Assembly: GCF_009914755.1 (NCBI RefSeq)
Contig: NC_060937.1
Source: the human T2T-CHM13v2.0 reference genome, Homo sapiens
DNA: 64,000 bases
Reading direction: 5' to 3' (one strand)
Positions 1 to 17,956 of this stretch are shown here, piece by piece. The notes beneath the pieces are model-generated. The model searched no databases, was not told the DNA's origin, and saw nothing but the letters and a program-made list of their open reading frames with translations. Position 1 is the first letter of the stretch. The number at the start of each line of letters is the position of its first letter. Made by a program: the position numbers and the translations under genes.

Positions 1-2380
1 TGAGAATGATGGTTTCCAGCTTCATCCATGTCCCTACAAAGGACATGAACTCATCATTTTTTATGGCTGCATAGTATTCCATGGTGTATATGTGACACGT
101 TTTCTTAATCCAGTCTATCATTGATGGACATTTGGGTTGGTTCCAAGTCTTTGCTATTGTGAATAGTGCCGCAATAAACATACGTGTGCATGTGTCTTTA
201 TAGCAGCATGATTTATAATCCTTTGGGTATATACCCAGTAATGGGATGGCTGGGTCAAATGGTATTTCTAGTTCTAGATCCTTGAGGAATCACCACACTG
301 CCTTCCACAATGGTTGAACTAGTTTACAGTCCCACCAGCAGTATAAAAGTGTTCCTATTTCTCCACATCCTCTCCAGCACCTGTTGTTTCCTGACTTTTT
401 AATGATCGCCATTCTAACTGGTGTGAGATGGTATCTCATTGCGGTTTTGATTTGCATTTCTCTGATGGCCAGATGGTGAGCATTTTTTCATGTGTCTGTT
501 GGTTGCATAAATGTCTTCTTTTAAGAAGTATCTGTTCATATCCTTTGCCCACTTTTTGATGGGGTTGTTTTTTTCTTGTAAATTTGTTTGAGTTCTTTGT
601 AGATTTTGGATATTAGCCCTTTGTCAGATGAGTAGATTGCAAAAATTTTCTCCCATTCTGTAGGTTGCCTGTTCACTCTGATGGTAGTTTCTTTTGCTGT
701 GCAGAAGCTCTTTAGTTTAATTAGATCCCATTTGTCAATTTTGGCTTTTGCTGCCATTGCTTTTGGTGTTTTAGACATGAAGTTCTTGCCCATGCCTATG
801 TCCTGAATGGTAATGCCTAGGTTTTCTTCTAGGGTTTTTATGGTTTTAGGTCTAACATTTAAGTCTTTAATCCATCTTGAATTAATTTTTGTATAAGGTG
901 TAAGGAATGGATCCAGTTTCAGCTTTCTACATATGGCTAGTCAGTTTTCCCAGCACCATTTATTAAATAGGGAATCCTTTCCCCATTTCTTGTTTTTGTC
1001 AGGTTTGTCAAAGATCAGATGGTTGTAGATGTGTGGTATTATTTCTGAGGGCTCTGTTCTGTTCCATTGGTCTATATCTCTGTTTTGGTAGCAGTACCAT
1101 GCTGTTTTGGTTACTGCAGCCTTGTAGTATAGTTTGAAGTCAGGTAGTGTGATGCCTCCAGCTTTGTTCTTTTGGCTTAGGATTGACTTGGCAATGCGGG
1201 CTCTTTTTTGGTTCCATATGAACTTTAAAGTAGTTTTTTCCAATTCTGTGAAGAAAGTCATTGGTAGCTTGATGGGGATGGCATTGAATCTATAAATTAC
1301 CTTGGGCAGTATGGACATTTTCACGATATTGATTCTTCCTGTCCATGACCATGGAATGTTCTTCCATTTGTTTGTGCCCTGTTTTATTTCGTTGAGCAGT
1401 GGTTTGTAGTTCTCCTTGAAGAGGTCCTTCACATCCCTTGTAAGTTGGATTCCTAGGTATTTTATTCTCTTTGAAGCAATTGTGAATGAGAGTTCACTCA
1501 CGATTTGGTTCTCTGTTTGTCTGTTATTGGTGTATAAGAATGCTTGTGATGTTTGCACATTGATTTTGTATCCTGAGACTTTGCTGAAGTTGCTTATCAG
1601 CTTAAGATTTTGGGCTGAGACAATGGGGTTTTCTAGATATACAATCATGTCATCTGCAAACAGGGACAATTTGACTTCCTCTTTTCCTAATTGAATACCC
1701 TTTATTTCTTTCTCCTGCCTGCTTGTCCTGGCCAGAACTTCCAACACTATGTTGAATAGGAGTGGTGAGAGAGGGCATCCCTGTCTTGTGCCAGTTTTCA
1801 AAGGGAATGCTTCCAGTTTTTGCCCATTCAGTGTGATATTAATGGTGGGTTTGTCATAAATCGCTCTTATTATTTTGAGATACATCCCATCAATACCTAA
1901 TTTACTGAGAGTTTTTAGCGTGAAGGGCTGTTGAATTTTGTCAAAGGCCTTTTCTGCATCTATTGAGATAATCATATGGTTTTTGTCTTTGGTTCTGTTT
2001 ATATACTGGATTACGTTTATTGATTTGCGTATGTTGAACCAGGCTTGCATCCCAGGGATGAAGCCCACTTGATCATGGTGGATAAGCTTTTTGATGTGTT
2101 GCTGGATTCGATTTGCCAGTATTTTATTGAGGATTTTTGCATGAATGTTCATCAGGGATATTGGTCTAAAAGTCTCTTTTTTTGTTGTGTCTCTGCCAGG
2201 CTTTGGTATCAGGATGATGCTGGCCTCATAAAATGAGTTAGGGAGGATTCCTTCTTTTTCTATCAATTGGAATAGTTTCAGAAGGAATGGTACCAGCTCC
2301 TCCTTGTACCTCTGATAGAAATCGGCTGTGAATCCATCTGGTCCTGGACTTTTTTTGGTTGGTAGGCTATTAATTATTGC
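1..2380 (-). mobile_element. LINE-1, 5'-truncated, older L1PA (about L1PA4); continues past the left edge
   Basis: ORFs 941-2266 and 536-793 translate to L1 ORF2p RT/C-terminal sequence (FADD motif present). Older-subfamily variants such as aattaatagccta, gagctgg and gagaaagaa. Truncation point abuts MER1A at 2381. Confidence 0.97.
1..2380 (-). pseudogene. ORF2: L1 ORF2 fragment (RT plus C-terminal part), disrupted
   Basis: No EN domain; TGG>TGA stop at 941-943; frameshifting deletion near 565-575. Confidence 0.93.
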
Positions 2381-2997
2381 TGAGCTTATTTTCCTGCAAC
2401 TAGATGGTCGCCTCTGTGGGTGATGGGAGACAGTGACAGATCATCAGGCATTAGATTCTCATAAGGAGCATGCAACTTAGATGCCTTGCATGCATAGTTC
2501 ACAATAGGGTTCACGCTCCTGTGAGAATCTAATGCCAGGGCAGATCTGACAGGAGGTGGAGCTCAGGCAGTAACACTCATTTACCTGCCACCTACTGTGT
2601 GGCTAAGTTCCTCTCTTTTTTTTTTTTGGAGGCAGGGTCTTGCTCTGTCACCCAGGCTGGAGTGCAGTGGCACAATCTCGGCTGGCTGCAACCTCTGATC
2701 CTCTGGGCTCAAGCGGTCCTCCCACCTCAGCCTCCTGAGTAGCTGGGACCACAGGGACGTGCCACCACCCAGCTGTAAATAAAGTGCACAATAAATGCAA
2801 TGTGCTTTTTTGTATTTTTAGTAGAGACAAGGTTTGGCCATGTTGCCCAAGCTGATCTCAAACTGCTGAGCTTAAGCGATCCACCTGCCTTGGTCTCCCA
2901 AAGTGCTGGGATTACAGGCATGAGCCACTGTGCCTGGCTGCTGCCCGGTTTCTAGCTGCCTGGTACCAGTCTTTGGCCCAAGAGTTGGAGACCCTTC
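2381..2997 (-). mobile_element. MER1A (hAT-Charlie DNA transposon), interrupted by an Alu and by the L1
   Basis: gatcatcaggcattagattctcataaggag...gagaatctaatgcc internal palindrome; terminal gttggagaccc. Confidence 0.85.
2616..2938 (-). mobile_element. AluJ with a foreign 31-bp insert in the linker
   Basis: Poly-T then dimeric Alu antisense; J-type ctgggctcaagcg. Confidence 0.93.
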
Positions 2998-17100: not shown

Positions 17101-17956
17101 CAAGGACTTCATGTCTAAAACACCAAAAGCAATGGCAACAAAAGCCAAAATTGACAAATGGGATCTAATTAAACTAAACAGCTTCTGCACAGCAAGAGAA
17201 ACTACCATCAGAGTGAACAGGCAACCTACAAAATGGGAGAAAATTTTCACAACCTACTCATCTGACAAAGGGCTACTATCCAGAATCTACAATGAACTCA
17301 AACAAATTTACAAGAAAAAAACAAACAACCCCATCAAAATTGGGCAAAGGACATGAACAGACACTTCTCAAAAGAAGACATTTATGCAGCCAAAAAACAC
17401 ATGAAAAAAATGCTCATCATCACTGGCCATCAGAGAAATGCAAATCAAAACCACAATGAGATACCATCTCACACCAGTTAGAATGGCAATCATTAAAAAG
17501 TCAGGAAACAACAGGTGCTGGAGAGGATGTGGAGAAATAGGAACACTTTTACACTGTTGGTGGGACTGTAAACTAGTTCAACCATTGTGGAAGTCAGTGT
17601 GGCGATTCCTCAGGGATCTAGAACTGGAAATACCATTTGACCCAGCCATCCCATTACTGGGTATATACCCAAAGGACTATAAATCATGCTGCTATAAAGA
17701 CACATGCACACGTATGTTTATTGCGGCATTATTCACAATAGCAAAGACTTGGAACCAACCCAAATGTCCAACAATGATAGACTGGATTAAGAAAATATGG
17801 CACATATACACCATGAAATACTATGCAGCCATAAAAAATGATGAGTTCATGTCCTTTGTAGGGACATGGATGAAATTAGAAAACATCATTCTCAGTAAAC
17901 TATGGCAGGAACAAAAAACCAAACACTGCATGTTCTCACTCATAGGTGGGAATTGA
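14129..17956 (+). pseudogene. ORF2: L1 ORF2 (EN-RT), disrupted
   Basis: Canonical 3828-nt span; ACG start; FADD>LADN (16226-16237); stops at 16595-16597 and 16946-16948; compensating -1/+1 indels near 17340 and 17405. Confidence 0.95.

What the first reader, a model, noticed from the sequence alone, without database searches (positions are those of the whole stretch)
858..17104. Two inverted L1s of different ages share private mutations, including the same stop codon: candidate non-allelic gene conversion
Seen: the reverse complement of 858-987 is identical to 16902-17031 (130 bp), and identity extends to about 17104 with one CpG transition. The tract holds two variants in both copies that differ from the L1PA consensus as I recall it: TGG>TGA (941-943 and 16946-16948; both ORF translations end KWCWEN*) and ggatccAttcc (908 and 16981). 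Two more shared non-consensus changes lie upstream: aTc>aGc, I>S (1722 and 16164) and aGc>aAc, S>N (1509 and 16380). Elsewhere the copies keep distinct L1PA4-like versus L1PA2-like diagnostics. Some diagnostics appear swapped: gtgcaa and atagacc in the young copy, ggcattacc in the old copy. Inference: repeated, patchy exchange between inverted repeats about 13 kb apart. One event may have copied a nonsense codon from one element into the other. The intact TSD of the young L1 argues that this haplotype is not itself inverted.
Basis: partly seen in the sequence, partly recalled or inferred. Interest (0 to 1): 0.8.

Follow-up and report, generated by a model that had tools for sequence, protein, structure and literature searches.

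The report
Probable gene conversion between neighbouring L1s
Two dead L1 retrotransposons of different ages, lying head to head about 13-17 kb apart on human chromosome 13, share four rare point changes including one stop codon, most likely because a short stretch was copied from one to the other, which is a known process with no visible consequence here.

Summary
The sequence facts hold. Copy A (window -299..2379, minus strand, 5'-truncated) and copy B (12137-18174, plus strand, full length) are separate insertions, each with its own target-site duplication. They differ by about 5% overall. They are identical over 130 bp and differ at one CpG site over 203 bp.

They share four changes that are rare among genomic L1 copies: G at 16164 (12 vs 7369 copies), A at 16380 (121 copies), the TGA stop at 16946-16948 (112 vs 8738) and A at 16981 (25 vs 9214). 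"Private" is therefore overstated: each change recurs elsewhere, and one chr15 copy has both TGA and A16981.

Sharing is above my empirical null. A shares 3 panel-exclusive states with B, against 0-2 (mean 0.34) with 29 other young copies, P about 0.005. Run-length tests are weak (P 0.10, 0.018; GENECONV-like 0.41).

Within 16799-17104, every odd site of A equals B and every odd site of B equals A.

Best reading: one short non-allelic gene conversion of about 130-200 bp (about 0.62), direction unresolved. "Repeated patchy exchange" is possible but not shown. Chance remains a serious rival (about 0.28). This is a known kind of event, both elements are already dead, and the interest is low.

The parts
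1..2379 (-). Copy A: older, 5'-truncated L1 covering the 3' part of ORF2. Its 3' UTR and A-rich tail continue to about -299, left of the window.
   Evidence: Inverted-repeat arms to 15506-17894. Alignment to B. Its best genomic relatives are only 93-95% identical. 46-49 sites depart from old-type copies.
2380..2393 (.). Target-site duplication of copy A. The second copy lies at -313..-300, outside the window.
   Evidence: An exact 14-nt match was found at both ends of A.
12137..18174 (+). Copy B: younger, full-length L1 of about 6.04 kb. It has four premature stops in the ORF2 frame, at 16595, 16946, 17354 and 17402.
   Evidence: Its best genomic relatives are 97-98% identical. Stops listed. 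ORF segments.
12121..12136 (.). 5' target-site duplication of copy B.
   Evidence: The 16-nt exact repeat also occurs at 18175-18190.
18175..18190 (.). 3' target-site duplication of copy B, directly after the A tail.
16902..17104 (+). Candidate conversion tract in B: 130 bp identical to A (16902-17031), then 72 bp (17033-17104), with one CpG difference at 17032. It holds TGA (16946-16948), A16981 and T17005.
   Evidence: Identity. Permutation P 0.10 (130 bp) and 0.018 (203 bp with one mismatch). B's three odd sites here all equal A.
785..987 (-). The same tract in A. It holds the stop (941-943), the A16981 equivalent (908) and a young/intermediate-type T at 813 (= B 17076).
   Evidence: All 3 A-odd sites between 16799 and 17104 equal B. 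15 of 17 other copies with the old-type base at 16901 have A at 17076. B is the best non-self genome hit for this stretch, with 1 mismatch; the next three hits score one step lower, which I read as 2 mismatches.
16164..16165 (+). Shared GC dinucleotide (A: 1722-1721). G is rare genome-wide. C is the old-type state, which only 2 of 29 young copies have.
   Evidence: G16164 in 12 copies (6 GC, 6 GT) against 7369 with T.
16380..16380 (+). Shared A (A: 1509). Rare but recurrent.
   Evidence: 1 of 29 young copies. 121 exact-context copies in the genome. Only 2 of 66 copies with B's neighbouring G16362/C16363 have it.

Best explanation
After the younger full-length L1 (B) inserted 13-17 kb from the older truncated L1 (A) in inverted orientation, a recombination-repair event used one copy as template for the other. 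It copied a short stretch of at least 34 bp (16948-16981) and at most about 130-203 bp (16902-17031, or to 17104).

That left both copies with the same stop codon and the same rare C>A change on otherwise distinct old-type and young-type backbones.

Shown: the two are independent insertions, the shared variants are rare, and the near-identity is local.

Inferred: the copying event itself. Its direction is unresolved. The other shared sites (16164/16165, 16333, 16380, 16819) may be further patches of the same or other events, or coincidences.

There is no functional consequence: A is truncated and B's ORF2 carries three other premature stops.
For: 1. Independent insertions. Each copy has its own target-site duplication, so shared changes are not inherited from a duplication.

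2. Different backbones. A-B identity is 95.28%. A is no closer to B overall than to 29 other young copies (93.9-95.45%). 26 sites separate the two types.

3. Four shared states are rare genome-wide: TGA 112 vs 8738, A16981 25 vs 9214, G16164 12 vs 7369, A16380 121. None is a hotspot. The mean count per specific single substitution in the 34-mer is 58.8.

4. Empirical null. States held by A and exactly one other copy of a 36-copy panel number 3 for B, against 0-2 (mean 0.345) for 29 other young copies, Poisson P 0.0053. Two of B's three are transversions, against 3 transversion matches in total among the other 29. None of the four pairs that share two such states (two A-young, two old-young) has them close together; the reported positions are over 1 kb apart.

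5. Local pattern. Between 16799 and 17104 all 3 A-odd sites (16948, 16981, 17076) equal B, against 2 of 46 elsewhere. B's 3 odd sites there (16948, 16981, 17005) all equal A.

6. 8 of B's 26 odd sites equal A, against 0-4 for 28 other young copies. One intermediate-type copy, L022, has 10.

7. B is the best non-self hit in the whole genome for A's 203-bp stretch.

8. The 203-bp near-identity is longer than expected, P 0.018.

9. Non-allelic conversion between nearby transposon copies is documented (PMC6598467, passages read).
Against: 1. Run length is weak evidence. The exact 130-bp run has P 0.10. A GENECONV-like test on 790 polymorphic sites gives P 0.41, and the longest concordant run in those units is elsewhere, at 16412-16493.

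2. The variants are not private. A chr15 copy (L031) has TGA, A16981 and T17005.

3. A young-type copy (L042/L057) and three intermediate-type copies (L031, L044/L058, L045/L059) carry A16981 with T17005. B may therefore have inherited those two states.

4. B leads the matches to A-odd states only narrowly: 5 against up to 4. B leads the genome hits to A's tract by one mismatch.

5. The copies are 5% diverged and 13-17 kb apart. Raised rates are reported mainly under 10 kb for Alu (PMC6598467, citing Aleshin and Zhi 2010).

6. The finding was picked out by eye from a genome-wide scan, so a P of 0.001-0.005 is not decisive.

7. Either direction needs one extra assumption: T17076 in A, or T17005 in B plus the retained difference at 17032.
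Confidence: 0.62

Rival explanations
1. Coincidence plus ordinary L1 lineage polymorphism. The four shared states arose independently by recurrent mutation, or were inherited from each copy's own source lineage. The 130/203-bp identity is the tail of the normal spacing of differences.
For: - Each variant recurs in 12-121 other copies, at the level expected for ordinary single substitutions.
- L031 independently has both TGA and A16981.
- A16981 with T17005 exists on young or intermediate backbones elsewhere.
- Other young copies share up to 2 exclusive states with A.
- The GENECONV-like test gives P 0.41 and the exact run P 0.10.
- The finding was selected by eye from many windows.
Against: - Three exclusive matches against a mean of 0.345 gives P 0.0053. 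With A16380 there are four rare matches.
- Two transversions are shared.
- TGA and A16981 are adjacent odd sites in both copies, 33 bp apart.
- All odd sites of either copy in 16799-17104 match the other copy.
- Only 3 copies in the genome are seen with both TGA and A16981, and two of them are these neighbours. This comes from the overlap of the lists. The last 12 of the 112 TGA places were not listed. One of the two chrY A16981 carriers was fetched and lacks TGA; its twin and two chr11 carriers were not fetched.
Confidence: 0.28
2. Assembly or polishing cross-talk between the two copies wrote one copy's bases into the other.
For: None from any call. It is listed only because the shared bases sit in repeats of one family 13-17 kb apart.
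Against: - The copies differ at 123 of 2390 aligned columns, and at sites immediately flanking the tract (16891, 16901, 17032, 17105).
- The shared sites are spread over 800 bp and interleaved with unshared ones. Wholesale mis-mapping would not give this pattern.
- Reads could not be inspected here.
Confidence: 0.03
3. Repeated inversion of the intervening segment by crossovers inside the inverted L1s (an even number, at different points) reciprocally swapped internal segments.
For: Inverted L1PA pairs do mediate polymorphic inversions. The table in PMC3961182 lists a chr13 L1PA3 pair (passages read).
Against: - No reciprocal pattern. At every shared site both copies carry the same state, rather than each carrying the other's.
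- Both target-site duplications still flank their own element.
- The diagnostic states on either side of the tract stay with their own copy.
Confidence: 0.02
4. A third L1 was the donor for one or both copies, or B's source element was itself a mosaic of lineages. The shared tract would then come from an intermediate-type haplotype such as L031.
For: The tract haplotype (T17005 with T17076) is the intermediate type seen in L031, L033 and L022. L031 also has TGA and A16981.
Against: - It needs two events with the same distant donor, or a source element carrying a stop in ORF2.
- L031 is of another type than B at 7 late-changing sites, and than A at most diagnostic sites.
- L031 shares no further rare states with B.
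Confidence: 0.05

Closest known systems
Non-allelic (interlocus) gene conversion between neighbouring transposable-element copies, best documented for Alu (Kass 1995, Roy 2000, Aleshin and Zhi 2010, as summarised in Fawcett and Innan 2019, PMC6598467; passages read)
   Same: Independent insertions of one family lying close together. A short stretch in which one copy carries the other's variants. A mosaic of subfamily-diagnostic states.
   Different: L1 rather than Alu. The arms are 13-17 kb apart, whereas raised rates are reported mainly under 10 kb. The copies are inverted and 5% diverged. No outgroup or population evidence is available here.
Conversion of pre-existing L1 copies by younger L1s (Myers et al. 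2002; Vincent et al. 2003), and double-strand-break repair from endogenous LINEs (Tremblay et al. 2000). These are recalled from memory; no text was seen here.
   Same: L1-to-L1 sequence transfer that changes diagnostic positions.
   Different: As I recall them, those cases concern replacement at orthologous loci or experimental breaks. Here the claim is a tract of about 130-200 bp between two resident neighbours, in an unknown direction.
Inversions mediated by inverted L1PA pairs (Aguado et al. 2014, PMC3961182; passages read)
   Same: An inverted pair of L1PA elements a few kb long and tens of kb apart, also on chromosome 13.
   Different: There is no sign of inversion or crossover here. The target-site duplications are intact and no chimeric backbone is seen.
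Interlocus gene conversion in segmental duplications
   Same: Short tracts of a few hundred bp between paralogous sequences.
   Different: Those paralogues are usually more than 95-98% identical and arose by duplication, not by separate retrotransposition.

Membership tests
Non-allelic gene conversion between dispersed repeats | The two copies are independent paralogues, not one duplicated locus | tested here: met
   Each copy has its own distinct target-site duplication. The copies are of different types at 26 sites.
Non-allelic gene conversion between dispersed repeats | A tract of significantly raised identity bounded by diverged flanks | tested here: inconclusive
   130 bp exact, P 0.10. 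203 bp with one mismatch, P 0.018. GENECONV-like run of polymorphic sites, P 0.41.
Non-allelic gene conversion between dispersed repeats | Derived variants rare in the family are shared within the tract | tested here: met
   TGA 112/8850 and A16981 25/9239, 33 bp apart in both copies. Exclusive sharing P 0.0053.
Non-allelic gene conversion between dispersed repeats | Local phylogenetic incongruence: in the tract a copy groups with its neighbour rather than its own subfamily | tested here: inconclusive
   A has the young/intermediate T at 17076, whereas 15 of 17 copies with the old-type base at 16901 have A. B has the old/intermediate T at 17005, found in 1 of 29 young copies. B is the top genome hit for A's tract, but by one mismatch only.
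Non-allelic gene conversion between dispersed repeats | The pre-conversion state is seen in an outgroup orthologue or in other haplotypes | not testable with these tools
   Only this one human assembly could be searched.
Reciprocal exchange by inversion toggling (double crossover between inverted repeats) | Each copy carries the other's original states between two breakpoints | tested here: not met
   At every shared site both copies have the same state. The target-site duplications are intact.
L1 (LINE-1) insertions of the primate L1PA series | Target-site duplication, A-rich tail, and ORF1/ORF2 body or a 5'-truncated part of it | tested here: met
   Thousands of genomic relatives.
L1 (LINE-1) insertions of the primate L1PA series | Assignment to named subfamilies (reader: L1PA2-like and L1PA4-like) | not tested
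   No repeat library was at hand. Only relative age was inferred: B has about 0.8% odd sites (18 that do not match A, of about 2350) and A about 2% (46-49 of about 2350-2380).

The most novel reading that the evidence does not exclude
A single long heteroduplex of about 900 bp (16164-17076) formed between two inverted L1s that are 5% diverged. It was repaired in patches in both directions, leaving at least 4-5 short exchanged patches: old-to-young at 16164/16165, 16333, 16380 and 16819, and young-to-old at 17076, with the stop codon carried along. This would show that neighbouring old and young L1s keep exchanging sequence well below the identity usually thought necessary. It would blur subfamily diagnostics and divergence-based ages.
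Probability: 0.2. Interest if true: 0.35.

Novelty: new member of a known kind. Interest (0 to 1): 0.2.

Why it matters
If real, this is one more example of dead L1 copies exchanging short stretches with neighbours. Point changes, even a nonsense codon, can then appear in an element without arising there. That matters a little for dating L1 copies by divergence, for subfamily calls from diagnostic sites, and for mutation-rate estimates drawn from repeats. Nothing at this locus suggests a functional effect: A is truncated and B has three other premature stops in ORF2.

Tried and rejected
1. GENECONV-like permutation of 790 polymorphic sites among 40 copies. It was not significant for A-B (P 0.41), so run length cannot carry the claim.

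2. Treating the three best hits of B (L002-L004) as sister copies, to fix B's ancestral states. They share only G16362 with B. That state occurs in 66 copies and may be recurrent, so the sister group is weak.

3. Treating L058 as a sister of B, from three shared rare states. Rejected: L058 is an L1 with an inverted 5' part, and two of the three matches (16228, 17878) fall outside its co-linear part, so they are alignment artefacts; the third (17340) lies at its edge.

4. Deciding the direction of transfer.
- T17005 and the other old-type states in B point from A to B.
- T17076 in A, and the existence of A16981 with T17005 on other young or intermediate copies, point from B to A.
- The assumptions needed are of similar weight, so direction is left open.

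I used the 17-copy sample instead.

6. The 3' UTR beyond the window edge adds one further B-odd state shared with A (17932). A and B differ there at 36 of 266 sites, so there is no added signal.

7. Reciprocal exchange by inversion toggling was rejected (see rivals).

Aleshin and Zhi 2010 is not held, so what I say of it comes from the passages of PMC6598467.

9. No search was made for this exact locus in print.
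Full report
WHAT IS THERE

The window holds two L1 elements in inverted orientation.

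- Copy A runs on the minus strand from the left edge of the window to 2379 and continues about 300 bp to the left of it. It is 5'-truncated within ORF2. It is flanked by a 14-nt target-site duplication at 2380-2393 and at -313..-300.
- Copy B is a full-length element at 12137-18174 on the plus strand. It has a 16-nt target-site duplication at 12121-12136 and 18175-18190.
- The homologous arms (1-2380 and 15506-17894) lie 13.1-16.9 kb apart.
- The two are therefore separate insertions.
- B's ORF2 frame has premature stops at 16595, 16946, 17354 and 17402. Both elements are dead.

CHECK OF THE OBSERVATION

- The reverse complement of 858-987 equals 16902-17031 exactly.
- In a global alignment of 2414 columns with 136 differing columns, the longest identical runs are 130, 94, 86 and 72 bp. 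The 72-bp run (17033-17104) follows the 130-bp run after one difference at 17032, which is C in B at a CpG and T in A.
- Both copies read ...NKWCWEN followed by a stop at 16946-16948 / 941-943.
- Both have A at 16981/908, G at 16164/1722 and A at 16380/1509.
They are shared states, not swaps.

AGES AND TYPES

No repeat library was available, so I used panels of genomic copies.

- B's best relatives are 97-98% identical to it. A's best relatives are 93-95% identical.
- A-B identity is 95.28%. That is inside the range of A against 29 other young copies (93.9-95.45%) and of A against its own five best hits (95.1-95.5%). There is no overall excess of A-B similarity.
- At 26 sites B has the state of the young panel and A the state of old-type copies.
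- At seven sites that changed late in the lineage, B has the young state throughout.
- B has 26 odd sites, meaning states held by at most 3 of 29 other young copies.
- A has 46-49 odd sites against old-type copies.

ARE THE SHARED VARIANTS PRIVATE?

No. Exact-context counts in the whole genome are as follows.

| Variant | Copies with it | Copies with the common base |
|---|---|---|
| TGA at 16946-16948 | 112 | 8738 (TGG) |
| A at 16981 | 25 | 9214 (C) |
| G at 16164 | 12 (6 followed by C as in A and B, 6 by T) | 7369 (T) |
| A at 16380 | 121 | not counted |

- The 34-mer around the stop has 5999 single-mismatch copies. That is 58.8 per specific substitution. TGA is therefore an ordinary recurrent transition, and the two transversions are ordinary rare ones.
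- Each variant is nevertheless carried by at most about 1.3% of copies.
- Only three copies are seen with both TGA and A16981: A, B and one on chr15 (L031). This is the overlap of the lists. The last 12 of the 112 TGA places were not listed. One of the two chrY A16981 carriers was fetched and lacks TGA; its twin and two chr11 carriers were not fetched.
- None of the 19 other A16981 carriers that I fetched has TGA.

IS THE SHARING MORE THAN CHANCE?

- In a panel of 36 copies, states held by A and exactly one other copy number 3 for B (16164, 16948, 16981). For 29 other young copies they number 0-2 (mean 0.345), Poisson P 0.0053.
- Two of B's three are transversions. The other 29 copies have 3 transversion matches in total.
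- A16380 is a fourth rare match. It is not exclusive in the panel.
- Of B's 26 odd sites, 8 equal A. The same B sites match six other old or intermediate copies at only 2-4 sites. Of the other 29 young copies, 28 match A at 0-4 of their own odd sites and one intermediate-type copy (L022) at 10.
- Of A's 46 odd sites, 5 equal B, against 1-4 for the other young copies. Two of these are simply the young majority state.
- The margin is real but small.
- Run length is weak evidence. Permutation gives P 0.10 for the 130-bp run and 0.018 for 203 bp with one mismatch. A GENECONV-like test on 790 polymorphic sites gives P 0.41.

THE TRACT

- Between 16799 and 17104 the only A-odd sites are 16948, 16981 and 17076, and all three equal B. 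Elsewhere 2 of 46 do.
- The only B-odd sites from 16902 to 17104 are 16948, 16981 and 17005, and all three equal A.
- At 17076, A has T, the young or intermediate state. Of 17 other copies with the old-type base at 16901, 15 have A there.
- At 17005, B has T, the old or intermediate state, found in 1 of 29 young copies.
- The tract is bounded by sites where each copy keeps its own type: 16891, 16901, 17032 and 17105.
- A search of the whole genome with A's 203 bp returns B as the best non-self hit (1 mismatch). Three copies score one step lower, which I read as 2 mismatches (40 of 945 candidates scored).

DIRECTION

- From A to B. This explains T17005 in B and gives a clean 130-bp tract. It leaves T17076 in A as a coincidence.
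- From B to A. This explains T17076 in A and the absence of unshared private changes in A over 16799-17104. It needs 17032 to have escaped conversion or to have decayed afterwards (5 of 29 young copies have T there). It also needs T17005 to be native to B.
- The native-T17005 assumption is plausible. A16981 with T17005 also occurs on one young-type copy (L042/L057) and three intermediate-type copies (L031, L044/L058, L045/L059).
- I could find no further state tying B to that group.
- Direction is left open.

THE OTHER SHARED SITES

- At 16164-16165, B has GC where 27 of 29 young copies have TT. A has GC on an old-type background.
- The flanking states of A at 16160 and 16177 are shared with other old-type copies and are not in B. 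A patch here would be at most 16 bp.
- G16333, A16380 and C16819 in B match A, but each occurs in some other copies of both types.
- These sites may be further patches or coincidences. 'Repeated patchy exchange' is not shown.

RIVALS

- Chance plus lineage polymorphism remains serious (about 0.28). The P values are 0.001-0.005 and the case was picked by eye from a large scan.
- Reciprocal exchange by inversion toggling is contradicted. No site shows each copy carrying the other's state, and both target-site duplications are intact.
- Assembly cross-talk could not be tested. It fits poorly with shared sites interleaved with unshared ones.
- A third-copy donor, or a mosaic source lineage, is possible but needs more events.

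COMPARISON WITH WHAT IS KNOWN

- Non-allelic gene conversion between transposon copies is documented. It shows mosaic diagnostic sites and raised rates between close copies (PMC6598467, passages read).
- Inverted L1PA pairs are known substrates of inversions (PMC3961182, passages read).
- L1-specific conversion papers (Myers 2002, Vincent 2003, Tremblay 2000) are recalled, not seen.
- This case would be one more instance, between copies that are unusually diverged (5%) and fairly distant (13-17 kb).

VERDICT

- Conversion of a stretch of about 130-200 bp is the best reading (about 0.62).
- It is a known kind of event, without functional consequence here, and of low interest.
- Outgroup orthologues and human long-read haplotypes would settle both the event and its direction.

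Noticed in passing
L031 = G000:C15:91389215-91391603 (minus strand): This is the only other copy seen in the genome with both the TGA stop and A16981. It is of an intermediate L1 type and shares no further rare state with B.
   Followed up: partly
L042/L057 (chr5:111286645-111289033), L044/L058 (chr8:120678213-120680601), L045/L059 (chr9:133611390-133613778), L031: Four young- or intermediate-type L1 copies carry A16981 together with T17005. Including L043, 5 of the 7 A16981 carriers that have C at 16901 carry T17005, so this may be a small L1 sub-lineage.
   Followed up: partly
L058 = G000:C8:120678213-120680601: This L1 copy has an internal inversion. One part matches B 16293-17347 in the forward direction and the adjoining part matches B 18124-17336 in reverse. 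This is the pattern usually ascribed to twin priming (recalled).
   Followed up: no
L017 (chr21:2770046-2775399) and L021 (chr14:1763767-1769120): These two L1 copies on acrocentric short arms share 10 states found in no other panel copy. They are presumably part of one duplicated segment.
   Followed up: no
L025, L026, L027 (chrY 23.98-25.59 Mb; L020 is close to them): These Y-chromosome L1 copies have the same identities to A and B and the same odd-site counts, as expected for ampliconic or palindromic copies.
   Followed up: no
window 16362; 66 genomic copies: B's G at 16362, with C at 16363, occurs in 66 L1 copies. Only B and one chrX copy also have A16380. It is unclear whether G16362 marks a small sub-lineage or is recurrent.
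   Followed up: partly
window 11730-12051 and 12137-13038: The two RefSeq 'enhancer' features (11751-12392, 12393-13038) cover an Alu, which I recognised by eye in the sequence printed, together with the 5' UTR and start of copy B.
   Followed up: no
window 16042-16045 (A: 1844-1841): A differs from B at four consecutive bases. This is a clustered multi-base change, and all four bases are among the A-odd sites.
   Followed up: no
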